Source of the DNA: an uncultured Pseudobdellovibrionaceae bacterium
Lineage (GTDB): Bacteria > Bdellovibrionota > FAC87 > UBA2466
Reading direction: 5' to 3'
Assembly: GCA_964604555.1 (NCBI GenBank)
Contig: CAZRZK010000011.1
Coordinates: forward strand, 14,732-78,731
Length of the DNA stretch: 64,000 bases
Shown: positions 10,768 to 25,288 of the stretch, piece after piece
Layout: every line of letters starts with the position of its first letter
How positions within the stretch are numbered: the stretch's first letter is position 1
Position numbers and translations under genes: made by a program
The notes under the pieces: generated by a model
The model's input: the letters and a program-made list of their open reading frames with translations, nothing else
Told to the model about the DNA's origin: nothing
Databases searched by the model: none

Positions 10768-10849
10768 GAATTTGCTCCCGTTTCGGGAAATCTAGATCCC
10801 TAGCCTGAGCTTGACAATACAAAAGCTAAATTCATAAAATTCATCCCTT

Positions 10850-12585: not shown

Positions 12586-14187
12586 ATGAAAACACGATGG
12601 ATGCTCCTCGCTTCGATAGTTTTATTGGTTGTCTCGGGTATTTCGGCCTATCTCTTCGGGTTTGTCCCCTGGATGTGGCAAGCTTCGCTCGGTTTAGGCG
12701 TGGCTCTTCTATTGGGATATCTTTTTACGCAACGGAGTTTTTATAAAGAATCGTTAGGGAAGAAAACGACCCAATATGGATTGAATTCAATTGTGATGGC
12801 AGTGCTCGCTACGGGCGTCTTTGCAATGATCAACACCATTGTTGCTCAGCACGATCTCAAGAAGGATTTTACAAAAAATAAACTCCATACCCTTTCTGAT
12901 CAGACGGTAAAGGTGCTTCAAGGCTTAAAGAGCGAAGTGGTGTTAAAAGCCTTTGTCGAGGTGAATCAGCTCCAGGCCTTCGATGCAGTGCTTTCGAAAT
13001 ACACCTACCTTTCCAAGCTGGTGAAACGGGAGTTTGTCGACGCCGATAAAGATCCAATGCTCGCCAAGCAATATAAAATAAAACAAGAGGGGGTCATCAT
13101 CGTTGAGAGCCAGAACCGCAGCTCTCGCATTGAAAATGTGTTTGGCCCGGATGATCCCAAGATCGAAGAGAAAATCACCAACGCCATCATCTCGGTTTCT
13201 AAAGGAGAGAAGAAAAAGGTCTATTTCATTACCGGCCATGGTGAAAAGCTAGTTTCTGACAACGGTCGTGAAGGCTTTTCCGATGTGAAAGAAGCCCTGG
13301 GAAGTTCTCTCTATCAAGTCGAAGAACTCCTCATCGTTGATAAGGAGAAAATCCCTGCCGATGCCGAAGTGGTTGTGCTCGCGGGGCCAAAATCGGATTT
13401 AATGGAGCATGAACTCAAGATGCTGGAGAGTTACGTGCTTGCGGGAGGAAAACTTTTTGTGATGGTGGAACCGAATGGGACTCCCAGCTTAAAAGGATTC
13501 CTCGCGAAGTTTGGTGCCGATTGGAAGGTAAAGAAAACTATCTTTGAAACCAATCGCCTTCAACAATTGGCCGGAGGCAATCCACTTACTCCCGTTGTGA
13601 CTACCTACACCCCCGGTCATCAGATCACCCAAGAGGCAAAACAGATGACGATCTTTGCGATTGCTACGCCAATCGAAAAGGCTGCCACCACTCCAAATGG
13701 ATATAAAGTGGAATCCCTCTTTTCGACCAGTCCTCGCAGCTTAGAAGTGGAGATGCAGGGGGATAAGGTAAAGGTAAATGAAAAGACCGATCGCAAAGGG
13801 CCCATCTCTTTAGCTCTCGCAATCTCTGGAAAGGCAATCGTTCCCGGAGCAAAACCGGAAGCCAAAACCCAAGATAAAGAAGACAAGAAACCAGGAGAAG
13901 AGGAAAAGAAAGAACAGGAATTTCGCCTCTTAGTCGTGGGCGACACCGACTTCGGAAGCAACAATCTACGTCGATTCGGCATGAACGCCGATCTGTTTCA
14001 GAATATGGTGAGCTGGCTGTCGAAGGATGAAGACTTGATCTCCATCCGTCCGAAACCAACCAATACCAGCGAGTGGGAGATCACCGAAGAGCGGTTCCGT
14101 ATCATCAACTTGGCGTCCATTTGGATTATGCCTCCGATGATGTTTATTGCGGGATTAGTGGTGTGGCTTACACGTCGTCGGAAATAA
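12586..14187 (+). CDS. gldG: GldG-like ABC transporter auxiliary component
   Basis: 533 aa with N- and C-terminal TM anchors and a large periplasmic domain, matching the GldG family architecture. It follows the gldA/gldF-like genes. Confidence 0.55.
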   Translation: MKTRWMLLASIVLLVVSGISAYLFGFVPWMWQASLGLGVALLLGYLFTQRSFYKESLGKKTTQYGLNSIVMAVLATGVFAMINTIVAQHDLKKDFTKNKLHTLSDQTVKVLQGLKSEVVLKAFVEVNQLQAFDAVLSKYTYLSKLVKREFVDADKDPMLAKQYKIKQEGVIIVESQNRSSRIENVFGPDDPKIEEKITNAIISVSKGEKKKVYFITGHGEKLVSDNGREGFSDVKEALGSSLYQVEELLIVDKEKIPADAEVVVLAGPKSDLMEHELKMLESYVLAGGKLFVMVEPNGTPSLKGFLAKFGADWKVKKTIFETNRLQQLAGGNPLTPVVTTYTPGHQITQEAKQMTIFAIATPIEKAATTPNGYKVESLFSTSPRSLEVEMQGDKVKVNEKTDRKGPISLALAISGKAIVPGAKPEAKTQDKEDKKPGEEEKKEQEFRLLVVGDTDFGSNNLRRFGMNADLFQNMVSWLSKDEDLISIRPKPTNTSEWEITEERFRIINLASIWIMPPMMFIAGLVVWLTRRRK

Positions 14188-14557
14188 CAGAATAGCGATC
14201 CTGTCCATAATCAGGCGAGAGCACAACCCATTCTTTTTCTGTAGTGGCTGGAAGAAACTTACCATTTGCCACAAAATAGACTGGCTTATTCAATGCGGTC
14301 CAAAATGCTCTAAGCGTTGCATAAGCAATCCGAAGACCCGTGTAACTACCCGGTCCAAGGGGAGCTACAAATCCATCGAGCTCTTCGAGTTTCAGCCCAC
14401 TTTGATTTAAGGCATTCTCAATTTCCGATAACAACAACTCCGAATGTTTCATTGCAGCTGGGTAATGGTGAACTTGTGCGGATGATGGGATCTCTAAGGA
14501 AGAAAGGATAGCAATCTTTCCTACCTGCTCAGTAAGATCTAGCCAGAGATAATGCAT
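14168..14557 (-). CDS. tsaB: TsaB/YeaZ-like protein (short; possibly truncated tRNA t6A biosynthesis partner)
   Basis: The LWLDLT...GKIAILS...LDGFVAPLGPGSYTGLRIAYATLRAF pattern matches the TsaB N-domain. The ORF is only 129 aa. Its 3' end overlaps gldG by 20 bp. Confidence 0.45.
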   Translation of the reverse strand: MHYLWLDLTEQVGKIAILSSLEIPSSAQVHHYPAAMKHSELLLSEIENALNQSGLKLEELDGFVAPLGPGSYTGLRIAYATLRAFWTALNKPVYFVANGKFLPATTEKEWVVLSPDYGQDRYSVISDDV

Positions 14558-14666
14558 CGGAGGGGTGTTCTAGCAAGATTCGAGGGGTTCGTCCACTTTC
14601 AAGGTAATCATGCTAATTGGCTGAGTGGAGAGGGAGCTCATCTGCTACCTATGCTAAAATAATTGA

Positions 14667-15200
14667 ATGAAATATTCGAAATGGCGGTATCAAATCTATT
14701 TAATAGGAGTGGTACTGGGTTTTTTGGTTCCATGTTATGGATCGCGTCAAATTATGGTGCCTATCGATCAGAACCTGGGGTTTCATGATCAAGCAGGTGA
14801 AAGAGTTGTCCTAACCTGTACCCTTACCAATCCCTCTTCATTATCACAGTCGATTAAGATCGAGTATTCAGAGGTTGCCGCATCAGAAACATATGCAGGC
14901 TCCTATCAGGGAACGAAAACGACAGCAGTTACTGGCGTCTCTCTGCCTGCAGCAACGGCCACCTCAATCGCACACTACAACTTTGGCTTTAACAAATCAG
15001 CACCAGGAACAACGGGAGGGGATGGATACAGCGCCTCACCCTATTTTTGGATCGCGGGAGCGCCCGCTCAATTATGGATTACGGTTAGTGAAGACGAGGG
15101 GTATGTAACGGGTTCATGTCGAAATTTCTGGCAAGGGTCTGGAACGGGGACTCCTTTCCTTCCCGCTTCCGTTTCCATGAATGGGGGACGTCCCTTCTAA
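14667..15200 (+). CDS. hypothetical secreted protein
   Basis: N-terminal TM/signal segment. The protein is G/S/T-rich with no recognisable domain. Confidence 0.35.
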   Translation: MKYSKWRYQIYLIGVVLGFLVPCYGSRQIMVPIDQNLGFHDQAGERVVLTCTLTNPSSLSQSIKIEYSEVAASETYAGSYQGTKTTAVTGVSLPAATATSIAHYNFGFNKSAPGTTGGDGYSASPYFWIAGAPAQLWITVSEDEGYVTGSCRNFWQGSGTGTPFLPASVSMNGGRPF

Positions 15201-15204
15201 ATGG

Positions 15205-15480
15205 CTCTACCTTGTAAAGGGAAAAACCTCTTATCGTGATCAGCGAAGGGACGGCGCAGTAACCTTAGGACCGACCGGGCGAGGGGGAGCCCGATCTGGG
15301 ATTCGATTCGGGGGGTGTCCGTCAATTAACGAGCGCCATACCCTTCACTAACCAAATTTTCTGTAATGCCAGCTGAAAGCCAGGGCTGCTATCTAGGGGT
15401 GTCTCACAGTCCTAGTTTAGCTCCATGCCCCAAAAGGCTGCAATAAACAGTCTGTATACACCCCTTCAAAATAAGGCTTA
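15205..15480. ncRNA. candidate structured non-coding RNA (unassigned; weak tmRNA-5'-domain-like motif)
   Basis: 276-bp GC-rich segment with no ORF in any frame. It contains GGGGGAGCCCGAUCUGGGAUUCGAUUCGGGGGG, which resembles the tmRNA 5' acceptor/D-analog region (GGGGCUGAUUCUGGAUUCGAC), and many short complementary segments. No CCA-terminal T-arm or tag ORF could be located by eye. Confidence 0.25.
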
Positions 15481-15481
15481 A

Positions 15482-15778
15482 TTGCTTAGGTTCATTGCAT
15501 TTTCCTCAATTTTGAATTTTTATGTCTGTCCAATGTTTGAGCAACATAAAGTCATTCTTAGCTTGAAGAACGAGGAGGTCGAGCTGACTGCATTCCATGG
15601 AGAGGTGTTACGCGAGTTGCTCATAAAGAGCGGTTATTCTCCCCACCGCGATCATTTTCTGCTACTCAACTGCCGTGGGAATGGAATCTGCGGTTCCTGC
15701 AAAGTGATGATTGATGGAAAAGAAGATCGTTCCTGCCAAGTGAAGTGTTACCGTGATTTGAAAATAAGAATCGATTGA
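15482..15778 (+). CDS. small Cys-rich ferredoxin-like protein (2Fe-2S-like CxxGxCGxC)
   Basis: The CRGNGICGSCKV motif plus two further Cys suggest a beta-grasp ferredoxin-like fold. The start is more likely the internal ATG at 15533 (MFEQHK...). Confidence 0.4.
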   Translation: MLRFIAFSSILNFYVCPMFEQHKVILSLKNEEVELTAFHGEVLRELLIKSGYSPHRDHFLLLNCRGNGICGSCKVMIDGKEDRSCQVKCYRDLKIRID

Positions 15779-15825
15779 CATCGTAAGCCCTTCCCTGCTT
15801 TTTATAAGTACTTGGGGAGGGGTAT

Positions 15826-16473
15826 ATGCGTTTCATTCAATTTTTTTCATTTTTTCTTTTAACTTCATTTTCATTTGCGAAAACTTCGAGTTCATCGTTA
15901 TCGCTACAGGATGATCTCTTTAAAGCTCAAAATAAAGGTTTGAGGGCAACTCAGGAACTCCGCAGCACTCAACTGCAATTGGATCGGGCGAAGTTTGTGT
16001 TGGAAATGGAAACCAATCTTTTTAATCATGGAGCAGGCTCATACTTTGGTTACTCCCAAGCCCTGGTGGAGTGGGTTCGGAAACTTTATGAAGTTGAAAG
16101 AGCCAATAATTGGAAAAAGGAAGCTGAGATAGAAGAGAAGGTCTATCGGATGCGGCTCGATTGGGAACAAGGTGTGAAAGAAGAAAATGTCCTGGAGCTG
16201 GGGCAACTTTACGTCAATTTAAGAAAAGAGCAGCTTCTTCTCATGAGGTCCTTGGCAGAGTCCACTAAGGTTCCCGTCGTTGAATTAAAAACCCAATGGG
16301 AGAAGATTGCCGAGCTGACTCATAATGGTTCTGCAAGCAAGAATGAATTGAGCATCGCTAAATTGAATTATGACGAAGCGATTGCCATCCAGAAAACGGC
16401 CGGTGAAGGAGTTATTTTGGCTGAAAAGCAGCTGGCCGAAGCGATTGCCGCGGTTGAAGGCGGAAAAAAGTAA
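15826..16473 (+). CDS. hypothetical secreted coiled-coil protein
   Basis: Signal peptide (MRFIQFFSFFLLTSFSFA), then a heptad-rich charged sequence. Confidence 0.4.
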   Translation: MRFIQFFSFFLLTSFSFAKTSSSSLSLQDDLFKAQNKGLRATQELRSTQLQLDRAKFVLEMETNLFNHGAGSYFGYSQALVEWVRKLYEVERANNWKKEAEIEEKVYRMRLDWEQGVKEENVLELGQLYVNLRKEQLLLMRSLAESTKVPVVELKTQWEKIAELTHNGSASKNELSIAKLNYDEAIAIQKTAGEGVILAEKQLAEAIAAVEGGKK

Positions 16474-16497
16474 CGCCAGTAAGGCATTGGTGTCCCG

Positions 16498-17163
16498 ATG
16501 AAATCCTATTCCATCACACGTCAAGGGAAGCGCTCCGAAAATCAAGATTCCTATTTCTGTGATGATAAGAATGGAATCTACGCCGTTGCCGATGGGGTCG
16601 GCGGTGGCGAGCTCGGAGATGTCGCCTCTCAGCTGGCAATCCAACTTTTTTCGGAAGGGGCGTCTCAGGGGCAACCCTTTGTCGAGGTTTGGGCTAGGAT
16701 TCACGAAGCGGTGACGAAAGCTTCATTCGAAAGGTTTAATGAACCGGTAATGGGCACCACCCTCACCGGGATTTCGATCGAGGGGTCTCAGGTCAAGATT
16801 GGTCATATCGGCGATACGCGTCTCTATGTTTACCAAGAAGGCTTATTGCGTCAGTTGACGCACGATCAAGAATCCTATGATGAACGATCAGGGCATACCG
16901 TACTCATGTCATTTCTCGGAATGGACAGCCGCCACTTTCAGATTGAGATCGTCGAAGACAGCTTCATTTTAGAACCCAAAGATAAGCTTCTTCTGTGCAG
17001 CGACGGTCTTTCCAAGCAGCTCAGCGAGATTACCATGTCTGGAATTATTAAGAGCTATGAAGCGCAACCTCAGCAGTTGGTTGAAATGCTGGCAAATCGA
17101 GCCGAGATCCATGAGCAATCGGATAATGTGACGCTGATTTGGGTGGAGCCTTTTTCAATATAG
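16498..17163 (+). CDS. PP2C-family Ser/Thr phosphatase (second copy)
   Basis: ADGVGGGELGDVAS, GTTL, GDTR, CSDGL and DNVTLIWVE motifs. Confidence 0.75.
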   Translation: MKSYSITRQGKRSENQDSYFCDDKNGIYAVADGVGGGELGDVASQLAIQLFSEGASQGQPFVEVWARIHEAVTKASFERFNEPVMGTTLTGISIEGSQVKIGHIGDTRLYVYQEGLLRQLTHDQESYDERSGHTVLMSFLGMDSRHFQIEIVEDSFILEPKDKLLLCSDGLSKQLSEITMSGIIKSYEAQPQQLVEMLANRAEIHEQSDNVTLIWVEPFSI

Positions 17164-19678
17164 ACCTTACTCCATTTCCAATAATCTGCGCTGCCTGTTT
17201 TGCCTGCTCCGGAGTGTGTGTCGCCATGACTTGCAGGCGGAAGCGGCTTGCTCCTAAAGGGACCACCGGATATTCGATGATCATCGCCGCTAATTGAGCT
17301 TCAGTCATTGCACGGTGGCAGAGTCGCGCCTTCCGTTCTGAACCAATAAACACCGGAACGATAGGCCCCGGAGCTCCGAAGCAGAGTTGCCCCTCCTTCA
17401 TAAGTTCGGACCTTAACACCGTTACTGCAGCGTGAAGTTTTTCCCGTAGAAGCGCCCCTTTCGGAGATCGAATAATCTGGCAGGCCTTGAGGGCGATGGC
17501 CGTCTGAATGGGCGAAAGGGCGTTCGAAAAAAGATGAGCCGAGCTAAACATCTTCAGATAATGGATCAGAGCTTTACTATCGGTAGCGACAAATCCCCCA
17601 TTAGTGGCAAAGCTTTTGGAGAAGCTGCCCATCACAATGTCGATCTTTCCGTACATTCCTTGCACGCCCATTTGGCCTCTTCCTTCAGGACCTGTGGCCC
17701 CTAAGTCATGGGCGACATCGACAAAGAGGAAGGCATTATATTGATGGGCAATCTCCTGAAATTTTTTCAGGTCTGGAGAATCGGCATCCATTGAAAAAAG
17801 TCCTTCAGTAATCAGAAGGATCGCGTTTTTGGTATCCCGTTTGCGAATCGCCCGCAACATGGCTCGAGCAGCATCGGGATCGAGATGAGCGTAGCGGTGG
17901 ACCTTCCGGGTTGCCGCCCTGGCCCCTTGCTGGAGGCAAGCGTGGGTGAGCCGGTCCATCACTATGTGATCCTGGGGTTTTACGATACCAATAATCGATC
18001 CGAAGCCGGCGGCATAGCCTGTCGCAAATAGGAGCACATATTTCTTGCCGGTCAGGATTTTTAATTCTTCCTCCAGTTCATGGGTTAAGAGAGTGTTTCC
18101 GATAATCATCGGGGATCCCGCACTATGGGGACCAAACTTTGAAATTGACTCGATAGCTGCCTGGGCAATTTCGGGATCTTGTCCTAATCCCAGATAATCT
18201 TGGGAAGCGAAATTGATCCCCTCGATCTTTCTTCCCGAATTATCGCTGAGAAGGGTGGTGTTGGCCGCAATTCGATGGAGCGTGCGGGAGTATTGGAACA
18301 TTCCTTTCTGCTCTCGGCGTTGGTAGAAATCATAATAGGGCTGTGTTCGTTCAAAAAGGTCTGGCCCAAAATGTTGGGAGTAGTCGAAACAGTTCTGTTC
18401 AAGGGCAAGATCAGGTGGTTCAGTGCTAAATGGATTTTGATAAACGGAACTAGAGATCCCAATCGGTTCTAAAGGAGTGGTATCGATAAGTCTTTCGAGC
18501 CTCCGCGCTTCAAAAAATTCCCGCACCGGAACCACATCGAAATAGAGCCCGATAAAACGATTCCGCTCTTCAGAAGAGTTAGAAATCGCTCGATAGAGCC
18601 TTTTTTCATCCGGTCGGAGCGGATTCATCTCCGCTTGTTGAGTCGTGAATTCATAAAAACGGAAGAGGTCCACTGAACGACGGTCTTCGAAGTCTCTAAT
18701 GGCCTCTCCCTTCAATTTTTTTCCACCAAAGAAATTTTGCAGCTCTTCAGAAAGGAGGAAGGCATCTCGCAGTGCATGGGTCATTCCATTGGCCGTACAC
18801 TGATCTTTAAAGCAATGAGCATCACCGATGAGCGGTGCCTGTGGCGAGCTTTTTCGAATAAAGGGCTGCTGATCTACCGTCAACCGAAACGGTTCTACTC
18901 TGCAAGCAGAAGAGACCATCTTACGATGGAATTCAGGATCAATGATTTGGAGTGCTTTGAAGAAATGAAATTCCTTTTCCCTTTTAAAGTCCTCATAAAA
19001 AGAGTCGGGACCAAAGACCAGTACCATTGTGTTCCCATCATTGGTCGGAACAGCCGCAAAGCTCAGTCGATTTCTCTTTTTTAAGAGCGCATGCGGGAGT
19101 TCAAGCCCCTTGAAATAAGAATAGCAGGCAAAGGTGCAGTGGTGGCGTTCTTCCATCTTTGAAACTTGGAAGTGTTCCGCAACGGTGGAGTTTTTACCAT
19201 CGGCTCCGACACAAATCTCGGTTCCCTCTAGGAGTTCTTCGGTAAAAGGAGTTCCCAAGCGAAGCTCAGCCCCTGATTTTACCGCCTCTTCCTGGAGCAA
19301 TTTATCTAAAAAGGCACGGCGGATGCAGGTGTATCGGGGATCCAATTTAAAAATTTCATTCGGGTGAACTGTTTCAAAGCGTCGTTGGAGATCATTTTCA
19401 GAGAGCGAGCCACCCAGGGCAATTTCATCCACACTCACCTCAAAATGGTGGAAAGCAGGGGTTTCCTTTAATACCGCTTCCGCAATTCCCAGAGAATGGA
19501 GATAGGTGAGCCCACGCGCATTCATAAAGTGGGTTGAAAGCACATCGTGCGTCTCATTCATTTTATCGACAAGGAGAACTTTTAACCCCGCCCTGGCAAG
19601 TCGGATGGCGGTGGCCGATCCGGCAATTCTGGCCCCAATGATAGTAACATCATACTGTTTCATAAAACCCCTTCCCAT
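17048..19678 (-). CDS. fusion protein: N-terminal FAD-dependent oxidoreductase domain + C-terminal alpha-oxoamine synthase (AONS/SPT/KBL/CqsA family, PLP)
   Basis: The N-terminus has the GxGxxG dinucleotide fold (DVTIIGARIAGSATAIRLARAGLKVLLVDK). The C-terminal ~400 aa has the class II aminotransferase pattern with PLP lysine GSFSKSF, DVAHDLG and DYLGLG. About 120 aa of linker separate the two domains. Confidence 0.7.
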   Translation of the reverse strand: MGRGFMKQYDVTIIGARIAGSATAIRLARAGLKVLLVDKMNETHDVLSTHFMNARGLTYLHSLGIAEAVLKETPAFHHFEVSVDEIALGGSLSENDLQRRFETVHPNEIFKLDPRYTCIRRAFLDKLLQEEAVKSGAELRLGTPFTEELLEGTEICVGADGKNSTVAEHFQVSKMEERHHCTFACYSYFKGLELPHALLKKRNRLSFAAVPTNDGNTMVLVFGPDSFYEDFKREKEFHFFKALQIIDPEFHRKMVSSACRVEPFRLTVDQQPFIRKSSPQAPLIGDAHCFKDQCTANGMTHALRDAFLLSEELQNFFGGKKLKGEAIRDFEDRRSVDLFRFYEFTTQQAEMNPLRPDEKRLYRAISNSSEERNRFIGLYFDVVPVREFFEARRLERLIDTTPLEPIGISSSVYQNPFSTEPPDLALEQNCFDYSQHFGPDLFERTQPYYDFYQRREQKGMFQYSRTLHRIAANTTLLSDNSGRKIEGINFASQDYLGLGQDPEIAQAAIESISKFGPHSAGSPMIIGNTLLTHELEEELKILTGKKYVLLFATGYAAGFGSIIGIVKPQDHIVMDRLTHACLQQGARAATRKVHRYAHLDPDAARAMLRAIRKRDTKNAILLITEGLFSMDADSPDLKKFQEIAHQYNAFLFVDVAHDLGATGPEGRGQMGVQGMYGKIDIVMGSFSKSFATNGGFVATDSKALIHYLKMFSSAHLFSNALSPIQTAIALKACQIIRSPKGALLREKLHAAVTVLRSELMKEGQLCFGAPGPIVPVFIGSERKARLCHRAMTEAQLAAMIIEYPVVPLGASRFRLQVMATHTPEQAKQAAQIIGNGVRSILKKAPPKSASHYPIAHGSRLDLPAFQPTAEVALHSS

Positions 19679-19679
19679 T

Positions 19680-19791
19680 GCTTCGCTGAAAAAGTGTCAT
19701 CTGCTTCGTCATCGATGATTTTCACAAAGGTACGGCCTACCTTTGTGAAAATCATCTTGGTTCCTCGCATTTGGCACTTTTTCAGCGAAGC
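19680..19791. promoter_or_regulatory. nested perfect palindromes in the divergent promoter region between the FAD-AONS gene and lysR
   Basis: An outer 17-bp inverted repeat gcttcgctgaaaaagtg/cactttttcagcgaagc encloses an inner 19-bp inverted repeat gatgattttcacaaaggta/tacctttgtgaaaatcatc with a 5-nt loop. Confidence 0.5.
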
Positions 19792-19864
19792 ACCATCTAA
19801 TTACTCATTCATAGATGATGGAATTGGTTTCTAAAAGTCCTTTATGGTAAATGTTTGGTTAGCA

Positions 19865-20743
19865 ATGGAGACCAATCGTTTAAGACAGTTCAAAGTCCTT
19901 GTCGAAACGAAACACCTCCGTCGTGCGGCCGAACTGCTCTCCATTTCCCATGGAGGTCTTTATAAATCCTTAAAGCAATTGGAAGAGGAATTGGGTTTCC
20001 CTCTTTTCTTTTCTCAGGGGAAGCGAATTGAAATCACTCCGAAAGGGTTGGAGATCTATCGACAGATTCCAGCAATTTTATCGGCGGTGGATGGAATTTT
20101 TAAATCAAAATCGGAGATCAGCACCCACCAAACGCTTACGCTCGGGACTTTTGAAGTTTTTAGCACCCATCTTTTAGGGCCGCTCTTTAAACAGGATACG
20201 TGGCAGGAAATTCATTTGAGATTAGTAGAATTGGTCCCGGGAGAGTTGGAGTTAGCCATTAAATCGGGCGAGGTGGATCTGGGAATAACCTACCTTCCCA
20301 TTCCAACCCGTGGTGTGGAGTTTGATAAGGTGGCACATCTGCGTATGGGAGTTTATGGCCGGAAAGGGGCTTTTCAAAAGCAGTCCTCTGAGAAACTTCC
20401 GTTTGTGATCCCGATTCGTCCTTTAAAAGGAACTCCCACTGGAGTTCGAGGGCTTGATGGCTGGCCAGAACAGGAGGTTCCCCGGCAGGTGGTTTATGAA
20501 GTCACCCTGATGGAGTCGGCATTGGAGTTGGTTCGTCAGGGACGAGCAGTGGTCTATTTACCAGAGCCGGTAGCGCGCGAACATAATCTGAAAATCAGAG
20601 CCCCCTTTGAATTGGTTGAGATCCAAGCCTTTCCAAAGTTGCCAGTGGTAAAACGGGATATCTTTATTGTGAGGCTTGAGGGACGGCAGGAAGGTAAGAT
20701 AGAGAAGCAATTGGCCTCAGCTTTGCGAATACTTGTACGATAA
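19865..20743 (+). CDS. LysR-family transcriptional regulator
   Basis: N-terminal HTH (LRQFKVLVETKHLRRAAELLSISHGGLYKSLKQLEEELG) plus a substrate-binding domain. It is divergent from the FAD-AONS gene. The start is taken as the internal ATG at 19865. Confidence 0.8.
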   Translation: METNRLRQFKVLVETKHLRRAAELLSISHGGLYKSLKQLEEELGFPLFFSQGKRIEITPKGLEIYRQIPAILSAVDGIFKSKSEISTHQTLTLGTFEVFSTHLLGPLFKQDTWQEIHLRLVELVPGELELAIKSGEVDLGITYLPIPTRGVEFDKVAHLRMGVYGRKGAFQKQSSEKLPFVIPIRPLKGTPTGVRGLDGWPEQEVPRQVVYEVTLMESALELVRQGRAVVYLPEPVAREHNLKIRAPFELVEIQAFPKLPVVKRDIFIVRLEGRQEGKIEKQLASALRILVR

Positions 20744-20746
20744 AGA

Positions 20747-21127
20747 ATGCAGCAGTATAGTCCAGCCATGGCCCAGATCTTCGAAATCGATCAGAAAAAA
20801 TACTTCACGTTGGATGAAGCCCGCGAGCTATTACCTGTGATTCGCCGGATTACCAAAGCGAGCCATGATCAAATCATGAAGCTCAACCAAAAGCTTTCCT
20901 ATCTTACTGATAAACTGCGGCAGGATGAGGTTGAGGCGGAGATGCAAGAGGAATTTCAAGAGTGGGTAATGAAAATGAAACGCTTAGGGTGTGAAGCGAA
21001 GGGTTCTTGGTTGGTCGATTTCGATAGTGGAGAGGGTTATTTCTGCTGGCGCTATCCCGAAGAGGAGTTGAATCATTTCCATAACTATCAAGAGGGGTTT
21101 GGAGGAAGGATCACCCTGAGTGTCTGA
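20747..21127 (+). CDS. hypothetical protein (DUF2203-like)
   Basis: 126 aa, operonic with the flanking genes: 4 bp downstream of lysR and overlapping the Rieske gene by 8 bp. Confidence 0.35.
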   Translation: MQQYSPAMAQIFEIDQKKYFTLDEARELLPVIRRITKASHDQIMKLNQKLSYLTDKLRQDEVEAEMQEEFQEWVMKMKRLGCEAKGSWLVDFDSGEGYFCWRYPEEELNHFHNYQEGFGGRITLSV

Positions 21128-21461
21128 GAAGTGCCTAGTCCGCATTCCTAAAAGCAAACTCCAAGAAAAAACCCCGCAAGGGTTCACCATCGAAAAGTCG
21201 GATCGCAAATTCCATGGGGTAGTCATCAAAAAGGGGAACCATTATTTCGCCTATGAAAACAGATGCTGTCATCTGCCAGTGACACTCGATTTGTTGGACA
21301 ATGATTTTTTAAATGAAGAAGGGGATGCGATCCAGTGCCACATGCATGGCGCGGTTTATGAAATGGAAACCGGTCATTGCATTGCAGGGCCCTGCCTGGA
21401 CGCCTTCCTGAATAAGTTGCAAGTGATAGAAGAAGGAGAATATCTGTGCGTGATGGAGTAA
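21120..21461 (+). CDS. Rieske [2Fe-2S] ferredoxin-like protein
   Basis: CxH...CxxH boxes: CCHLPV and CHMHGAVY. Confidence 0.7.
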   Translation: MSEKCLVRIPKSKLQEKTPQGFTIEKSDRKFHGVVIKKGNHYFAYENRCCHLPVTLDLLDNDFLNEEGDAIQCHMHGAVYEMETGHCIAGPCLDAFLNKLQVIEEGEYLCVME

Positions 21462-22549
21462 AGCCGCTTTCAACCTGGGCGATTCATGGGGTGGAACCCA
21501 AAAAGGGGGAAGAGATTGTGATTCCTCCCATTCACCTTTCTACTACTTATCGTTATGTTGGGAATGACAAGGGCGAGCCCGTTCGCTACACCCGATTGAG
21601 CAATACTCCCGAACATTTGCGCATTGGACAAAAGCTGGCCGCCCTAGAAGGAGCCGAAGCGGCATTGGTGACGGCATCAGGAATGGCGGCGATTTCAACG
21701 GCTCTTTTAGCTCTGGTACCGATTGGGAAAAGGGTTCTCTGCCATCGTCAAGTTTATGGTGCCACCTCGATGTTTTTATCGAAGGACTTTCTCCAGATGG
21801 GACGAAAAGTGGCCTGGTATCAAACGGAGCAGGAGCTAGAAGCTTTATTGCTTCAACACCCGAATGAAATAGCCGTGGTCTATGCAGAAACTATTTCAAA
21901 TCCATTGTTGGCCCGATCTCCAATTGAAAGGATCGCCACTCTAGCAAAGAAACACGGAGCGCTTGCTATTATCGATAATACCTTTGCTAGCCCCGTGAAT
22001 GTCAGACCGATTGAGTTGGGGGCGGATGTTGTGGTTCATAGTGCGACTAAATATTTAAATGGGCATACCGATGTGACAGCGGGAGTGGTCGCTTCTTCTT
22101 TTCAACGGATTAAACAGGTCAGCGAACTTCTGAAACATTTGGGAGGATTTCTAGCTCCCTTTGAGATCTATCTTTTAGAGCGGGGTTTAAAAACATTGGT
22201 TCCCAGGGTGCAATGGCAGAACCGAAGTGCCCAGCAGCTATCTGAATTTCTATCGACCCACGCCAAAGTTCAAAAGGTCTACTATCCCGGTTTTGGAGGA
22301 ATGGTTGCCTTTGAATATAAGGGAACGGAATCGGAACTTTTCACAGCCCTTGAGCGCTTTCAACTCATAGCGATCGCCCCCAGTTTGGGAGGGGTAGAAA
22401 GCCTTCTAACCCTACCGGCCCAGACCACCCATAGTTGGGTATCGGCAAAGGATAGGGAGGAGATGGGGATAAAGCCCACTTTGGTGAGGGTTTCGGTCGG
22501 ATTGGAAGAACCTGAAGAGCTGATTGAAGATTTTAAAAGGGCGTTGTAG
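21446..22549 (+). CDS. PLP-dependent Cys/Met-metabolism gamma-family enzyme (cystathionine gamma-synthase / methionine gamma-lyase-like)
   Basis: PLP lysine region SATKYLNGHTDV and the typical trans-sulfuration family layout. It overlaps the Rieske gene by 16 bp. Confidence 0.75.
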   Translation: MRDGVKPLSTWAIHGVEPKKGEEIVIPPIHLSTTYRYVGNDKGEPVRYTRLSNTPEHLRIGQKLAALEGAEAALVTASGMAAISTALLALVPIGKRVLCHRQVYGATSMFLSKDFLQMGRKVAWYQTEQELEALLLQHPNEIAVVYAETISNPLLARSPIERIATLAKKHGALAIIDNTFASPVNVRPIELGADVVVHSATKYLNGHTDVTAGVVASSFQRIKQVSELLKHLGGFLAPFEIYLLERGLKTLVPRVQWQNRSAQQLSEFLSTHAKVQKVYYPGFGGMVAFEYKGTESELFTALERFQLIAIAPSLGGVESLLTLPAQTTHSWVSAKDREEMGIKPTLVRVSVGLEEPEELIEDFKRAL

Positions 22550-22552
22550 AGT

Positions 22553-23104
22553 TTGAGGCTTATGAAACACCCATTCGTTGCTCTTATCCTGATAAAGGTC
22601 GTCAGTTTTTCATTGATGTTTGGGATCCTTTCCTGCACCGGAAAGAAAAACACCACAATTGAGAGCAAAGTGACTGAAGGAGGAAAAATGTTAGTGATTG
22701 AAACCGCCCATGGCACGATTGAGGCCGAGCTTTATGCAGGAGATGCCCCTAAAACAGTGGCCCGGATTTCTGAACTCGCAAAAAAAGGCTTTTATGATGG
22801 ACTCACCTTCCATCGCGTGATTCCTGGATTCGTAGCTCAAGGCGGAGATCCCGATGGTAATGGGACCGGTGGATCGGGACAAAACATTCCCGCAGAATTT
22901 AATTCCCGTGAACATGTCGAAGGAACATTGGCCATGGCCCGGGCGCAGGATCCCAATTCGGCCGATTCACAATTCTACATCGCTTTAGGAAGGCTTCCCC
23001 ACCTCGATAAAAACTACACCGTTTTTGGTCAGGTCACCAAAGGGATGGACGCCGTAAAGAAGATCAAGGTCGGCGATAAGATGACTAAAGTGACAGTAAA
23101 GTAG
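22553..23104 (+). CDS. ppiA: periplasmic cyclophilin-type peptidyl-prolyl cis-trans isomerase
   Basis: Lipoprotein/signal sequence and cyclophilin motifs (FHRVIPGFVAQGGDP, MARAQDPNSADSQFYI). Confidence 0.85.
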   Translation: MRLMKHPFVALILIKVVSFSLMFGILSCTGKKNTTIESKVTEGGKMLVIETAHGTIEAELYAGDAPKTVARISELAKKGFYDGLTFHRVIPGFVAQGGDPDGNGTGGSGQNIPAEFNSREHVEGTLAMARAQDPNSADSQFYIALGRLPHLDKNYTVFGQVTKGMDAVKKIKVGDKMTKVTVK

Positions 23105-23140
23105 CCGTCATTGCGAGGAGCCCGAAGGGCGACGCGGCAA
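23105..23140 (+). repeat. REP-like hairpin element copy (GTCATTGCGAGGAGCCCGAAGGGCGACGCGGCAA)
   Basis: Same family as the 9511 element. It sits immediately after the cyclophilin stop, at convergent gene ends. Confidence 0.55.
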
Positions 23141-23141
23141 A

Positions 23142-23444
23142 CTACTCCGGCAAATGCGCAAGGTGAGAAGGCTTTTCAACGTTGAACTTCTTGGTGAGTT
23201 CAAAAAGCCCTTTTTCATTTTCGGCTACAAGCTCGAGTGAAGTTGAAATCCACTGCCAGGCCGTTCCATTTTTCTGGGTAAAGAAAGCATATTGGGCGTA
23301 ACGCTCCGCGCTAAATGGCACGCGGATGAATCGCCTCGCATTCTCTCCAGCGGAGCCCAACTGCTCTTCCAGATTTGGGATAAGAGATTGAATATCTGTA
23401 AGTTTTTCAGGTGAAGAACGACGGATAATGTAGCGCATTGCCAT
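23142..23444 (-). CDS. hypothetical protein
   Basis: 100-aa ORF with no recognisable motifs. It fills the gap between the REP element and the divergent promoter. Confidence 0.3.
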   Translation of the reverse strand: MAMRYIIRRSSPEKLTDIQSLIPNLEEQLGSAGENARRFIRVPFSAERYAQYAFFTQKNGTAWQWISTSLELVAENEKGLFELTKKFNVEKPSHLAHLPE

Positions 23445-23591
23445 AGTCTTTCATTTATAACCTCTTCTGCTTACCAATTCAAAATGATTCGTCAGGCATA
23501 GAAACAGCCTTTGTACCATGGGATAATAAAGGTCTGCTTAGGAGATCTGCTAACGAAGGACTACGTTTAAAACCAACCTTGAGGAATCAGA

Positions 23592-23873
23592 ATGGCCAAG
23601 AAAATCTATGTCGGAAATTTAAGTTATGACGTATCGGACGATGAGTTACACCAACTTTTCAGCCAATGCGGACAGGTATCAGAAGCAAAAATCATCAAAG
23701 ATAGAGACACCGGAAGATCCAAAGGCTTTGGGTTTGTAGAAATGCCCAATGACGAAGAGGCCACCCATGCCATCGATCGGATGCAAGGGCATGATTTTAA
23801 GGGGCGTCCGCTACAAGTCGATGAGGCGAAGGAAAACACCGGCGCTCGTGGTGGGGTTCGGCGGCGGGGTTAA
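23592..23873 (+). CDS. RRM-type RNA-binding protein
   Basis: RNP2 KIYVGNL and RNP1 KGFGFVEM, followed by a Gly/Arg-rich tail. Confidence 0.8.
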   Translation: MAKKIYVGNLSYDVSDDELHQLFSQCGQVSEAKIIKDRDTGRSKGFGFVEMPNDEEATHAIDRMQGHDFKGRPLQVDEAKENTGARGGVRRRG

Positions 23874-24664
23874 TGCGGCTTGAGGAAAGCCATCACCAAC
23901 TCCGCCACAATTAACAGCACGATCAATAATTCCAGAATAGTCGACCGACTTTTGGAGGCGAGATCGCCAAGGATGGCCATGTTTTCCTGAATCAAGCTCA
24001 GCTTTCTATCGATAACTTTAAATCGCACTTCAATATCGAAATTCTGCTGCAGCTCCTTATAAAATTTTTCCAATTCCTTGCTCTTCCAGGTTTCATCGGG
24101 AGGATCGAGGATTGCAAGATTACTAATGATATTCTGGCGCGCCGTAGCCGTAGTGCCAATGCGTTTTAAAAGATTTCGGTAAGAAAAAGGGACCATTCCT
24201 GAATCGGCAAGGTGTTGCATTTCCTTCATCATGTCGTGGAGCATGCGTTCGCAGCGGATTTCAAAATATTCTAAGGCCGCCGATTGTCCTACCGTCATTG
24301 CGACCAATCGCAAATAATCACGGGAGATTTTTTTGAGTTCGACATGTTCAAATTCAACTTTAAGTTGGTCAGTAATATTAACTTGATACGATTCGGTTGT
24401 GGGAAAGGCGAGCCCTTCTCCCAGCGCTACCTTTAGAATGGCCGTCTCTTTTTCAATTTCTTCATTGGACATGTTAAAAAAAACGAGGCAACCAAACCGG
24501 TAAAGGAAGAGAAAACTATTTTCCCCATATTGCAGCTGCAATTCTTGTGGTGTGGACTCGATCACCGTGCCGGTCAAGAGAGAGCGTGACGCCTTGATGT
24601 TGATCAAGGGATACAGATTAATGGCCTGCATCATGAACGGTTGTGTCGGCGTTAGCTGGGTCAT
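23870..24664 (-). CDS. hypothetical protein with C-terminal TM segment (RMD1/DUF155-like)
   Basis: 264 aa with a C-terminal hydrophobic helix (ELLIVLLIVAELVMAF). The 3' end overlaps the RRM gene by 4 bp. Confidence 0.3.
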   Translation of the reverse strand: MTQLTPTQPFMMQAINLYPLINIKASRSLLTGTVIESTPQELQLQYGENSFLFLYRFGCLVFFNMSNEEIEKETAILKVALGEGLAFPTTESYQVNITDQLKVEFEHVELKKISRDYLRLVAMTVGQSAALEYFEIRCERMLHDMMKEMQHLADSGMVPFSYRNLLKRIGTTATARQNIISNLAILDPPDETWKSKELEKFYKELQQNFDIEVRFKVIDRKLSLIQENMAILGDLASKSRSTILELLIVLLIVAELVMAFLKPH

Positions 24665-24709
24665 ACGAGCATCATATCAGTAAAGAGATACCTGGGGTAA
24701 AATAGAAGA

Positions 24710-25288
24710 ATGATAAAGCATGGGTTGTTACTTTTATGCGTGATCAGTGCGTCAGCATGGGGCGGGATTGAGGTCTTTTCAAAAGGCTCTCTTTCTAAAA
24801 ACTACTTCGACCAAAATACCTGGACGGTCAATCTTTCCATTACTGCTGGCATCGGGTTTAAACTTATCCCGGGATTGAGGATCGAGGGGCGCTATACCAA
24901 TGTGAGTGGTTTGCAAAATCGAATGGTGCTCCAGAACGGAGGAGGCACGCTCACCGACATCAAAACCGAAACCCACATCTATAGCATGGGTTTGGATATC
25001 GATTTTTTAGGTGAGGCAAGTGCCATTCAACCTTTCTGTTTCTTGGGAGCCGGGTACATTGGCATCTCTCGAAGCTATTACTATCAGCTTCAGGGAGCGA
25101 GCAGCGCCAATTTTTACCAAGAAGCACCCCGTTCCGAAATTTCCGGTAACGTGGGATTGGGAGTTCGGCTACGGATCGCAAAATCATTGGCTTTGGAAAT
25201 CGAAGCCTATGGGTACATCATTGATATCGATAAACCGGACAGGTTAATCAACTACTTCGGAACGGCAGGGGTGCGTGTTTTTATGTAG
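24710..25288 (+). CDS. small outer-membrane beta-barrel protein
   Basis: Signal peptide, alternating hydrophobic beta-strand pattern and a C-terminal aromatic residue (RVFM). Confidence 0.4.
   Translation: MIKHGLLLLCVISASAWGGIEVFSKGSLSKNYFDQNTWTVNLSITAGIGFKLIPGLRIEGRYTNVSGLQNRMVLQNGGGTLTDIKTETHIYSMGLDIDFLGEASAIQPFCFLGAGYIGISRSYYYQLQGASSANFYQEAPRSEISGNVGLGVRLRIAKSLALEIEAYGYIIDIDKPDRLINYFGTAGVRVFM

What the first reader, a model, noticed from the sequence alone, without database searches (positions are those of the whole stretch)
17048..22549. LysR-controlled divergent locus with an FAD-oxidoreductase::alpha-oxoamine-synthase fusion, Rieske ferredoxin and PLP gamma-enzyme: candidate small-molecule/signal biosynthesis system
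Seen in sequence: an 876-aa single polypeptide joins an N-terminal FAD/NAD(P)-binding oxidoreductase domain to a complete C-terminal alpha-oxoamine synthase domain. The synthase domain has the PLP lysine GSFSKSF and belongs to the AONS/KBL/SPT/CqsA family.

The fusion gene is divergently transcribed from a LysR regulator. That regulator heads a tightly overlapping operon: lysR, a DUF protein, a Rieske 2Fe-2S protein, then a PLP Cys/Met gamma-synthase/lyase-like enzyme.

Established knowledge: AOS enzymes condense an amino acid with an acyl-CoA. CqsA and LqsA make alpha-hydroxyketone autoinducers. SPT makes 3-ketodihydrosphingosine, and predatory Bdellovibrio-like bacteria make unusual sphingolipids. 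LysR regulators usually control the divergent neighbour.

Inference: the fused flavoenzyme could oxidise or reduce the amino-ketone product in cis. I do not know of an FAD-AOS fusion being characterised, so this may be a new signalling or lipid-headgroup pathway.
Basis: partly seen in the sequence, partly recalled or inferred. Interest (0 to 1): 0.8.

Follow-up and report, generated by a model that had tools for sequence, protein, structure and literature searches.

The report
Inserted regulator plus flavin–PLP fusion enzyme
A rare, uncharacterised two-in-one enzyme (a flavin oxygenase-type half joined to an amino-ketone-forming PLP half) and its own LysR regulator form a two-gene cassette that has been dropped into an unrelated conserved operon, so the neighbouring Rieske and Cys/Met genes are bystanders, not part of a pathway.

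Summary
The sequence observation holds. An 871/876-aa ORF joins a FAD_binding_3 flavoprotein to a complete alpha-oxoamine synthase (AOS, PLP lysine K688). It faces a LysR gene that is followed tightly by DUF2203, Rieske and Cys/Met-PLP genes.

The fusion is not an assembly artefact. About 27 full-length homologues (40-61% identity) exist in Bdellovibrionota, Flavobacteriaceae, Myxococcota and Streptomyces. Split forms occur as translationally coupled adjacent genes, and AlphaFold models the whole chain confidently (pLDDT 92.5, pTM 0.92).

The proposed five-gene "system" is not supported. Related contigs keep the same 14-kb gene order, with PP2C-DUF2203-Rieske-CGS-PPIase contiguous, but lack the fusion and LysR. 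No other fusion locus carries those three genes.

The real unit is a two-gene cassette. An orthologous divergent LysR accompanies the fusion in six independent loci.

The AOS domain belongs to a well-separated, uncharacterised AOS clade that is not BioF, Kbl, SPT or CqsA. Stand-alone members of this clade often sit beside sensor kinases.

The flavin half has the group-A monooxygenase/halogenase fold but lacks the halogenase motifs. Substrates and product are unknown.

The 114-bp palindrome is window-specific and looks like an inserted hairpin, not the conserved operator.

Verdict: new variant of a known kind, moderate interest.

The parts
17048..19663 (-). Fusion gene (flavoprotein::alpha-oxoamine synthase). 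The ORF runs from 19678; the likely start is ATG 19663 (M6).
   Evidence: ORF. Pfam FAD_binding_3 plus Aminotran_1_2. 27 full-length homologues. SD AAGGGG upstream of M6.
18479..19663 (-). N-terminal flavoprotein module (aa ~6-400). Motifs: GARIAG, D45-x-LSTHF, GADG, GDAHCFKDQCTANGMTHALRDA. Includes a C-terminal helical subdomain.
18359..18478 (-). Conserved linker (aa ~401-440) with the near-invariant Y-x-N-P-F motif (N415).
   Evidence: Alignment A1. The same motif forms the C-terminal tail of the closest stand-alone flavoproteins, including those encoded next to a separate AOS gene.
17144..18358 (-). C-terminal alpha-oxoamine synthase domain (aa ~441-845). Key residues: H579, D654/H657, PLP Lys K688 (codon 17615-17617), R812/R814.
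17048..17143 (-). Unconserved C-terminal tail, most of it (17048-17163 ORF overlap) lying antisense to the 3' end of the PP2C gene. Probably created at the insertion junction.
   Evidence: ORF coordinates. Tail not aligned in A1. pLDDT <50 for aa 847-876.
19679..19792 (.). 114-bp nested palindrome immediately upstream of the fusion gene's ribosome-binding site. Window-specific and flanked by ATGG on both sides. Probably an inserted hairpin element lying in the promoter region or 5' leader of the fusion gene.
   Evidence: dG -64, z -9. Unique in the window. Absent from orthologous intergenic regions, which are 62-140 bp. No Rfam family. No exact match to its 19-bp inner-arm core in the metagenome contigs.
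19793..19864 (.). lysR-proximal part of the divergent intergenic region. Carries ACCAAA-N22-AGAAACCA, shared with the two closest orthologous loci. Candidate LysR operator and promoter region.
   Evidence: Alignment A4 of intergenic regions. Inference only.
19865..20743 (+). LysR-type transcriptional regulator, the conserved divergent partner of the fusion gene. The ORF is listed from 19844; the likely start is 19865.
   Evidence: Pfam HTH_1 plus LysR_substrate. Orthologues at 57/54/46/34/32% identity sit in the same divergent position in L087, L101, L012, L085 and L099.
16498..17163 (+). PP2C phosphatase gene. NOT part of the cassette. It is the left flank of the insertion and the first gene of the interrupted host operon.
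   Evidence: Pfam PP2C_2. In relatives it is directly followed by DUF2203/Rieske.
20747..23104 (+). DUF2203, Rieske, Cys/Met-PLP (trans-sulfuration family) and cyclophilin genes. NOT part of the cassette. They are the right flank of the insertion and the remainder of the host operon, now abutting lysR.
   Evidence: Pfam. Same order and orientation without fusion or LysR in L096, L097, L098 and the 17.5-kb contig of P0148.

Best explanation
The feature is a self-contained two-gene cassette of about 3.6 kb (window ~17164-20746). It holds a LysR-type regulator and, divergently transcribed, a bifunctional enzyme.

The cassette lies inside an otherwise conserved housekeeping-type operon (PP2C-DUF2203-Rieske-trans-sulfuration enzyme-cyclophilin). 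It was most likely inserted there; a deletion in the relatives is less parsimonious.

The C-terminal half of the enzyme is a catalytically complete PLP-dependent alpha-oxoamine synthase. It belongs to a distinct, uncharacterised clade. By family chemistry it condenses an amino acid with an acyl-thioester, with decarboxylation, to give an alpha-aminoketone.

The N-terminal half is an FAD-binding protein of the group-A monooxygenase / StyA / halogenase fold that lacks the halogenase motifs. It most likely performs an O2-dependent oxygenation or oxidation. The target would be either the reactive aminoketone, handed over within the complex, or the substrate just before condensation.

The two activities are an obligate pair. 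They are fused in some lineages and encoded by overlapping adjacent genes in others.

The LysR protein probably senses the product or a precursor and controls the divergent promoter. The product is probably a small diffusible or specialised metabolite; its identity is unknown.

What is shown: architecture, conservation, intact catalytic residues, the partnership of the two halves, LysR co-inheritance, and independence from the flanking genes.

What is inferred: reaction order, substrates, regulation and biological role.
For: Domains and catalytic residues:
- Domain calls and aligned or invariant catalytic residues.

The fusion is real:
- Homologues at 40-61% identity are conserved along the whole length, including the linker.
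- Only about 4-5 representative clusters exist among 1.84 billion representatives, so the family is rare.
- The full-length model has pLDDT 92.5 and pTM 0.92.

Split (Rosetta-stone) forms:
- Saccharothrix L089: flavoprotein 8001-9335 and AOS 9332-10933, overlapping by 4 bp, at 38% and 50% identity to the two halves.
- Hyalangium L015: 9998-11353 and 11350-13032. Archangium L014 is similar.
- The linker's NPF motif is retained as the tail of the split flavoproteins.

The cassette is a separate unit:
- Orthologous divergent LysR in six independent loci.
- The flanks of those loci are otherwise unrelated and often carry toxin-antitoxin or integrase genes.
- Synteny from ABC-aux through RarA (window 12586-26552) is preserved in L096-L098 without the two genes.

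AOS clade:
- It separates from BioF, Kbl and SPT in 200/200 bootstraps.
- The same clade occurs fused to FAAL-ACP and FAAL-ACAD-ACP modules, which is consistent with acyl-thioester donors.

Flavoprotein fold:
Against: - No biochemical data exist, and the substrates cannot be read from the sequence.
- The window copy has a unique ~20-residue deletion in the FAD domain. The model stays confident, but activity could be impaired.
- The GxGxxG motif is the variant G-x-R-x-x-G.
- The cassette is compositionally indistinguishable from its surroundings. A recent foreign origin is therefore not shown, and loss from the relatives cannot be formally excluded.
- Streptomyces and Kitasatospora members have no adjacent regulator.
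- Monophyly of fusion plus split AOS sequences has only ~50% bootstrap support.
- Contexts of related flavoproteins point to aromatic-amine chemistry (PabAB/PabC-like genes, PLP decarboxylase). AOS relatives point to fatty-acyl chemistry. The clues on substrate class therefore conflict.
Confidence: 0.6

Rival explanations
1. First reader's model. A single LysR-controlled biosynthetic system in which the fusion enzyme, DUF2203, the Rieske ferredoxin and the Cys/Met gamma-enzyme act in one pathway.
For: - Tight spacing and overlap of lysR-DUF2203-Rieske-CGS.
- After the insertion these genes may well be co-transcribed from the lysR promoter in this strain.
Against: - PP2C-DUF2203-Rieske-CGS-PPIase is a conserved contiguous block in relatives that lack the fusion and LysR.
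- tblastn finds no DUF2203, Rieske or CGS homologue near any other fusion locus. The only CGS hit in the loci searched lies beside a stand-alone AOS in L017.
- In orthologous loci lysR stands alone.
Confidence: 0.04
2. The cassette is a one-synthase, one-receptor signalling module. The enzyme makes an oxidised aminoketone or hydroxyketone-type autoinducer, analogous to CqsA/LqsA products. The LysR protein is its cytoplasmic receptor, analogous to PqsR.
For: - The nearest AOS relatives (46-51% identity) lie within 3 kb of a multi-TM sensor histidine kinase in 26 of 58 genome loci. In 43 of 77 metagenome loci such a kinase lies within the 6-kb flanks fetched. REC-GGDEF-EAL and REC genes are often present too.
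- The regulator is co-inherited with the enzyme.
- Other fusion loci have Crp-like, ECF-sigma or LuxR-type regulators nearby.
- By established knowledge, CAI-1 synthesis needs redox steps after CqsA.
Against: - It is not a CqsA equivalog: 135 bits against a cut-off of 428.
- No kinase is adjacent to any fusion.
- Split forms sit in NRPS or type III PKS clusters typical of secondary metabolism.
- Actinomycete members lack a regulator.
- LysR next to a divergent enzyme gene is equally typical of catabolic operons.
Confidence: 0.22
3. The enzyme is catabolic, a Tdh/Kbl-like pair in one chain. The flavoprotein oxidises or hydroxylates an amino compound to a 2-amino-3-oxo acid-type intermediate. 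The AOS domain then cleaves it with CoA (reverse Claisen). The LysR protein is a substrate-responsive activator.
For: - By established knowledge, Kbl physiologically works in the cleavage direction and pairs with an oxidoreductase that makes an unstable intermediate, which is a rationale for fusion.
- LTTR-plus-divergent-gene is the classic catabolic layout.
- The segment E-Y-P-V-V-P (aa 802-807) resembles, from my recollection of their sequences, the Kbl/ALAS (F/Y)-P-x-V-P region rather than the R-P-P of BioF/SPT. This is an untested lead.
Against: - Group-A-fold flavoproteins are rarely alcohol or amine dehydrogenases.
- The AOS clade's other architectures (FAAL-ACP-AOS) are biosynthetic.
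- Split forms lie in biosynthetic clusters.
Confidence: 0.1
4. The gene is an assembly or sequencing chimera of two adjacent genes, or a decaying pseudogene.
For: - This copy has a ~20-aa deletion in the FAD domain and an odd C-terminal tail.
Against: - The reading frame is uninterrupted.
- The same architecture occurs in ~27 sequences from independent assemblies and isolate genomes.
- All catalytic and cofactor motifs are intact.
- The two-domain model is confident.
Confidence: 0.03

Closest known systems
CqsA / LqsA alpha-hydroxyketone autoinducer synthases with their cognate sensors (Vibrio, Legionella)
   Different: - It scores 135 bits against the 428-bit cut-off for the CqsA/LqsA model and 68 bits against the CqsA PDB sequence, compared with 192 for SPT.
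- The partner is a LysR regulator, not a CqsS-type kinase.
- It carries a fused flavoprotein that CqsA and LqsA lack.
Serine palmitoyltransferase, Kbl, BioF, ALAS (canonical stand-alone AOS enzymes)
   Different: - Only 29-33% identity in the domain alignment.
- Separated with 200/200 bootstrap support.
- Below every equivalog cut-off.
- The clade-specific motif HSAGSP replaces the usual G-S-R segment.
- No bio, tdh or sphingolipid genes nearby.
Natural multi-domain AOS enzymes, e.g. the BioW-BioF fusion (PMC9544090). SxtA and PigH-type ACP-AOS proteins are cited from my own knowledge.
   Same: They are precedents for an AOS fused to the enzyme that acts just before it, with proposed channelling between domains.
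   Different: Known partners are acyl-activating or carrier domains. Here the partner is a group-A-fold flavoprotein, and no characterised example was found.
PqsH/PqsL flavin monooxygenases with the LysR-type receptor PqsR (Pseudomonas quinolone signalling); pyrrolyl-carrier-protein halogenases PltA/Mpy16/Bmp2
   Same: The N-terminal half shares their fold, including the C-terminal helical cap. The Pqs system also pairs a group-A-fold flavoenzyme with a LysR receptor (own knowledge).
   Different: - Only 15-20% identity.
- No WxWxIP motif and no conserved catalytic Lys, so it is not a halogenase.
- No quinolone genes nearby.
- The resemblance to Pqs is an analogy, not homology of the system.

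Membership tests
Alpha-oxoamine synthase (PLP fold-type I, CoA-dependent acyltransferase) superfamily | PLP-binding Lys in an S-F-S-K type motif, plus His stacking on PLP, an Asp-x-x-His pair and the C-terminal Arg | tested here: met
   K688 in GSFSKSF, with H579, D654/H657 and R812/R814 invariant in 25 sequences and aligned to the SPT residues.
Alpha-oxoamine synthase superfamily | AOS three-dimensional fold | tested here: met
Alpha-oxoamine synthase superfamily | Decarboxylative Claisen condensation activity | not testable with these tools
   Needs an enzyme assay.
BioF (8-amino-7-oxononanoate synthase) | Score above the NCBIfam TIGR00858 equivalog cut-off; biotin gene neighbourhood | tested here: not met
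   275.8 bits against a cut-off of 426.45. No bio genes within 14000-26000.
Serine palmitoyltransferase | Score above the SPT equivalog cut-offs | tested here: not met
   232.6/640, 215.3/500 and 152.6/670.
Kbl (glycine C-acetyltransferase) | Score above the equivalog cut-off; tdh neighbour | tested here: not met
   237.1/460 and 202.4/493. No tdh nearby.
CqsA/LqsA autoinducer synthase | Score above the NF005526 cut-off; adjacent CqsS/LqsS-type sensor kinase | tested here: not met
   135.4/428. The neighbour is a LysR regulator. No kinase is seen next to any fusion locus.
Group A-type FAD-dependent monooxygenase (FAD_binding_3 / PHBH fold) | Dinucleotide-binding GxGxxG, DG (GADG) and GD motifs; PHBH-like fold | tested here: met
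Group A-type FAD-dependent monooxygenase | NAD(P)H-dependent flavin reduction and substrate oxygenation | not testable with these tools
   Cannot distinguish one-component from two-component (StyA/halogenase/PqsL-like) behaviour from sequence.
Flavin-dependent halogenase | WxWxIP motif and the catalytic Lys | tested here: not met
   The position aligned to Bmp2 W-S-W-I-I-P reads L-S-F-A-A-V-P. No conserved Lys in the corresponding strand in 25-66 sequences.
LysR-type transcriptional regulator with divergent target | N-terminal HTH_1, C-terminal LysR_substrate domain, divergent arrangement conserved with the target gene | tested here: met
   Pfam. Orthologues are divergent to the fusion in L012, L085, L087/88, L099 and L101. 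DNA binding was not tested.
Proposed five-gene 'LysR-DUF2203-Rieske-CGS + fusion' system | Co-occurrence of the components across genomes | tested here: not met
   No co-occurrence beside any other fusion. The three genes occur with PP2C and PPIase, without fusion or LysR, in relatives.
Known anti-phage defence systems (PADLOC) | Match to a PADLOC model | tested here: not met
   No hits for the fusion or LysR.

The most novel reading that the evidence does not exclude
A portable 'one enzyme plus one receptor' chemical-signalling cassette. The flavin-AOS didomain would make, from primary metabolites in two channelled steps, a new class of oxidised aminoketone or hydroxyketone signal. The co-inherited LysR protein would sense that signal. 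The cassette would spread among predatory Bdellovibrio-like bacteria and other phyla. It would be related to a much larger, unstudied family of kinase-linked AOS signal synthases in Alphaproteobacteria and Acidobacteriota.
Probability: 0.2. Interest if true: 0.8.

Novelty: new variant of a known kind. Interest (0 to 1): 0.55.

Why it matters
AOS enzymes make the committed intermediates of biotin, haem, sphingolipids and the CAI-1/LAI-1 quorum signals. A conserved AOS that is physically married to a flavin oxygenase-type partner implies chemistry on the unstable aminoketone, or on its precursor, that has not been described. Such an enzyme would also be a compact two-step biocatalyst.

The work shows that this AOS belongs to a large clade without any characterised member. 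The stand-alone members of that clade are often wired to sensor kinases and c-di-GMP enzymes, which points to an unexplored family of bacterial signals.

For genome annotation the case is a caution. An apparently tight operon here is the scar of a two-gene insertion, so adjacency alone would have assigned three bystander genes to a pathway.

Tried and rejected
Hypotheses rejected:
- Assembly chimera. Rejected on conserved homologues, split forms and a confident model.
- Halogenase. The N-terminal half's best PDB hits are Bmp2, PltA and Mpy16, but WxWxIP and the catalytic Lys are missing.
- BioF, Kbl, SPT, CqsA or ALAS identity. All are below their cut-offs and separated in the tree.
- Flavoprotein genes next to the stand-alone AOS homologues. 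None found.
- Anti-phage defence. No PADLOC hit.
- Palindrome as a known RNA. Only chance-level Rfam hits.
- Palindrome as a repeated element. It is unique in the window, and there is no exact match to its 19-bp inner-arm core in the metagenome contigs.
- Palindrome as the conserved LysR operator. It is absent from orthologous intergenic regions.
- Foreign composition of the cassette. Not detected.

Searches that led nowhere:
- Promoter and terminator scans were uninformative, at or below shuffle expectation.
- Literature searches for a flavin-AOS fusion, CqsA-like systems in Alphaproteobacteria, and PapD/PapF pyrazine chemistry returned nothing usable.
- The exact-sequence look-up of the window's own protein was not on record, and cluster members carried no names. 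The organism is therefore inferred only from relatives, as Bdellovibrionota-like.
- The afdb50 fold library was unavailable.

Full report
**1. Observation.**
- An 876-aa ORF lies on the minus strand at 17048-19678.
- On the plus strand lie lysR (19844-20743), a 126-aa ORF (20747-21127), a 113-aa ORF (21120-21461) and a 367-aa ORF (21446-22549), spaced or overlapping as described.
- Pfam assigns FAD_binding_3 (aa 9-320) and Aminotran_1_2 (aa 487-833) to the long ORF. It assigns HTH_1 plus LysR_substrate, DUF2203, Rieske and Cys_Met_Meta_PP to the others.
- NCBIfam hits only AOS models in the C-terminal half. All are far below their equivalog cut-offs: bioF 276/426, Kbl 237/460, SPT 233/640, ALAS 190/339, CqsA-type 135/428.
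- The PLP lysine is K688 in GSFSKSF.
- The palindrome is real: nested arms of 26 and 19 nt at 19679-19792. As RNA it folds at -64 kcal/mol, z = -9.

Refinements:
- The fusion probably starts at M6 (ATG 19663), which has a good Shine-Dalgarno sequence. The database copy is 871 aa.
- LysR probably starts at METNRL (19865), as its orthologues do.

**2. The fusion is genuine, conserved and rare.**
- A search of 5.8 billion proteins returned 27 full-length homologues at 40-61% identity.
- A genome scan placed them in Bdellovibrio, Bacteriovoracaceae and Bdellovibrionota MAGs, Flavobacteriaceae MAGs, Archangium and Hyalangium, and Streptomyces and Kitasatospora isolates.
- Conservation runs through both halves and the linker.
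- In a library of 1.84 billion 50%-identity representatives, only about four or five representatives are full-length fusions.
- AlphaFold2 on a 66-sequence alignment gives pLDDT 92.5 and pTM 0.92 for the whole chain, so the relative placement of the two domains is confident.
- The window copy uniquely lacks about 20 residues (a beta-hairpin) before GADG. All cofactor and catalytic motifs are intact.

**3. The two halves are an obligate pair.**
- Stand-alone flavoproteins of 400-460 aa match 97-99% of the N-terminal 393 residues at 30-39% identity.
- The closest, from Saccharothrix yanglingensis, is followed with a 4-bp overlap by a separate AOS gene that is 50% identical to the C-terminal half.
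- Hyalangium and Archangium have the same split arrangement.
- The fusion linker contains a near-invariant Y-x-N-P-F. The same motif forms the extreme C-terminus of the closest stand-alone flavoproteins but not of more distant ones. I infer that it is a docking element.
- None of 58 genome loci with stand-alone AOS homologues has such a flavoprotein nearby.

**4. What the neighbours are.**
- tblastn of the window's neighbours against all fetched fusion loci found only a LysR orthologue in L012. It found no DUF2203 or Rieske homologue at all; the single CGS hit lay beside a stand-alone AOS locus (L017), not beside a fusion.
- Further loci showed a 288-aa LysR, divergent and directly upstream, in L085, L087/88, L099 and L101.
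- These LysR proteins are 32-57% identical to the window's. That makes six independent loci in this subclade. The subclade itself has 98% bootstrap support.
- Elsewhere the flanks are unrelated: toxin-antitoxin pairs, an integrase, prophage genes; Crp-like regulators and an MBL hydrolase in Flavobacteriaceae; a type III PKS and a GMC oxidoreductase in myxobacteria; an NRPS with a LuxR regulator in Saccharothrix; nothing obvious in Kitasatospora.

**5. The decisive synteny result.**
- The Cys/Met enzyme has ordinary trans-sulfuration-family homologues at 45-50% identity.
- The contigs carrying the best two show the order ABC2 - ABC-aux - TsaB - (Fer2-like) - PP2C - DUF2203 - Rieske - CGS - cyclophilin - small ORF - RRM - DUF155 - ORF - RarA - LptF/G.
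- tblastn confirms that window genes from 12586 to 26552 are collinear with these contigs at 37-76% identity, in the same orientations. The exception is that the fusion and LysR have no counterpart there.
- PP2C is directly followed by DUF2203, or by Rieske in one lineage. The fusion and lysR therefore form a 3.6-kb two-gene block sitting between PP2C and DUF2203.
- The fusion ORF's unconserved, disordered last ~30-38 codons read antisense through the 3' end of PP2C. This fits a junction artefact.
- Composition is not atypical. The event is therefore old or came from a similar donor, and loss in the relatives cannot be strictly excluded. Either way the module is independent of its flanks.
- A consequence, by inference, is that DUF2203-Rieske-CGS-PPIase may now be transcribed from the lysR promoter in this strain.

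**6. The palindrome.**
- Orthologous LysR-fusion intergenic regions are 62-140 bp and contain no long palindrome.
- Removing the 114-bp element from the window leaves about 87 bp, the usual size.
- The element is flanked by ATGG on both sides and ends 1 nt before the ATGGGAAGGGG ribosome-binding region.
- It is unique in the window, matches no Rfam family, and its 19-bp inner-arm core has no exact copy in the metagenome contigs.
- I read it as an inserted hairpin element in the promoter region or 5' leader of the fusion gene.
- The lysR-proximal part carries ACCAAA-N22-AGAAACCA, shared by the three closest loci. This is a better candidate operator, though untested.

**7. Which AOS?**
- In neighbour-joining trees the fusion, split and stand-alone relatives form one clade. 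It separates from E. coli BioF and Kbl and from Sphingobacterium SPT in 200/200 bootstraps. Identity is 40-52% inside the clade and 29-33% to the outgroups.
- Internal branching, including monophyly of fusion plus split forms, is weak (97/200).
- No member reaches any NCBIfam equivalog cut-off.
- Of 58 genome loci with stand-alone members, 26 have within 3 kb a sensor histidine kinase with a multi-TM N-terminus. REC-GGDEF-EAL and REC genes are common.
- 43 of 77 metagenome loci also have such a kinase, within the 6-kb flanks that were fetched.
- The same clade also occurs as FAAL-ACP-AOS, FAAL-acyl-CoA-dehydrogenase-ACP-AOS, ACP-AOS-FeeM and cNMP-binding-AOS proteins.
- These architectures suggest fatty-acyl thioester donors and regulatory or signalling roles. 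This is inference, not demonstration.

**8. Which flavoprotein?**
- The halogenase signature WxWxIP reads LSFAAVP here, and no conserved lysine occupies the catalytic position. It is not a halogenase.
- GADG and GD motifs are invariant. The subfamily has its own motifs: G-A-R-x-A-G, F-P-x-D-x-L-S-T-H and G-D-A-x-x-F-K-D-Q-C-T-A-x-G-M-T-H-A-L-R-D-A.
- Related stand-alone members sit beside a PLP decarboxylase plus chorismate-utilising genes, and inside a type II PKS cluster with PabAB- and PabC-like genes. This hints at amine or aryl-amine substrates.
- That hint conflicts with the fatty-acyl hint from the AOS side. I leave the substrate class open.

**9. Mechanism proposed.**
- The AOS domain forms an alpha-aminoketone from an amino acid and an acyl-thioester (family chemistry).
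- The flavin domain oxygenates or oxidises this labile product, or the substrate just before condensation, within a tight complex. This follows from the fusion/split pattern, the confident interface and the docking motif.
- LysR controls the divergent promoter in response to product or precursor, which is typical LTTR behaviour and is supported only by conserved pairing.

Rivals:
- A signalling cassette, about 0.2.
- A catabolic Tdh/Kbl-like didomain, about 0.1.
- An artefact, about 0.03.

**10. Comparison and novelty.**
- The nearest known systems are the canonical AOS enzymes, CqsA/LqsA with their sensors, natural AOS fusions such as BioWF (PMC9544090), and, by analogy only, the PqsH/PqsL-PqsR arrangement.
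- Membership of BioF, Kbl, SPT, CqsA and the halogenases was tested and not met.
- Full-text searches found no description of a flavin-AOS didomain.
- I rate it a new variant of a known kind: a known enzyme class in a new, conserved didomain or complex architecture with a dedicated regulator.
- Interest is moderate. The core enzyme and the large kinase-linked sister clade are genuinely unexplored.

Noticed in passing
window 19679-19792: A 114-bp nested palindrome (dG -64 kcal/mol as RNA), flanked by ATGG/ATGG and sitting 1 nt upstream of the fusion gene's ribosome-binding region. It is absent from all orthologous intergenic regions. It looks like an inserted hairpin or MITE-like element that could block or attenuate expression of the fusion gene.
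   Followed up: partly
L016-L083 and L102-L178 (e.g. L046 3751-11311, L059 2473-11419, L020 2019-11323): Stand-alone AOS genes of the same clade (46-51% identity), in Alphaproteobacteria and other phyla, are flanked by one to three multi-TM sensor histidine kinases, a REC-GGDEF-EAL protein and single REC proteins. In Acidobacteriota the neighbour is a Ser/Thr kinase with a beta-propeller. This looks like an undescribed CqsA/CqsS-like signalling locus family.
   Followed up: partly
proteins P0274, P0282, P0283, P0285, P0288, P0284, P0276 (representative library): The same AOS clade occurs as the C-terminal domain of FAAL-ACP-AOS, FAAL-acyl-CoA dehydrogenase-ACP-AOS, ACP-AOS-FeeM and cNMP-binding-AOS proteins of 600-1700 aa.
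   Followed up: partly
window 16498-23104; L096, L097, L098: PP2C phosphatase - DUF2203 - small Rieske protein - trans-sulfuration-family PLP enzyme - cyclophilin is a conserved gene string in relatives of this organism. DUF2203 is missing in one lineage. Its function as a unit is unknown.
   Followed up: partly
window 17048-17163: The convergent PP2C and fusion ORFs overlap by 116 nt. The fusion's last ~30-38 residues are unconserved and predicted disordered, probably read-through created at the insertion junction.
   Followed up: partly
window ~19190-19230 (fusion aa ~150-155): This copy of the fusion lacks about 20 residues (a beta-hairpin of the FAD domain, just before GADG) that are present in all 24 aligned homologues. 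The model remains confident, but cofactor binding or activity might be affected.
   Followed up: partly
L089 1-17335 (Saccharothrix yanglingensis); L015 8837-16759 (Hyalangium MAG): Split flavoprotein+AOS pairs lie in biosynthetic contexts. In Saccharothrix the context is a large NRPS, SnoaL, Aminotran_4, a polyketide cyclase-like protein, a LuxR-type regulator and two hydrolases. In myxobacteria it is a type III PKS upstream and a GMC oxidoreductase downstream.
   Followed up: no
L005 8009-13479 (Flavobacteriaceae MAG): The fusion gene is bracketed by two paralogous Crp-like cNMP-binding regulators. It is preceded by a secreted metallo-beta-lactamase-fold hydrolase whose HLHFDH motif resembles that of AHL lactonases (the resemblance is from memory, not tested).
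   Followed up: no
window 15482-15778: A 98-aa ORF with a weak 2Fe-2S ferredoxin-like match is conserved at the same position in the syntenic contig L097 (37% identity).
   Followed up: no
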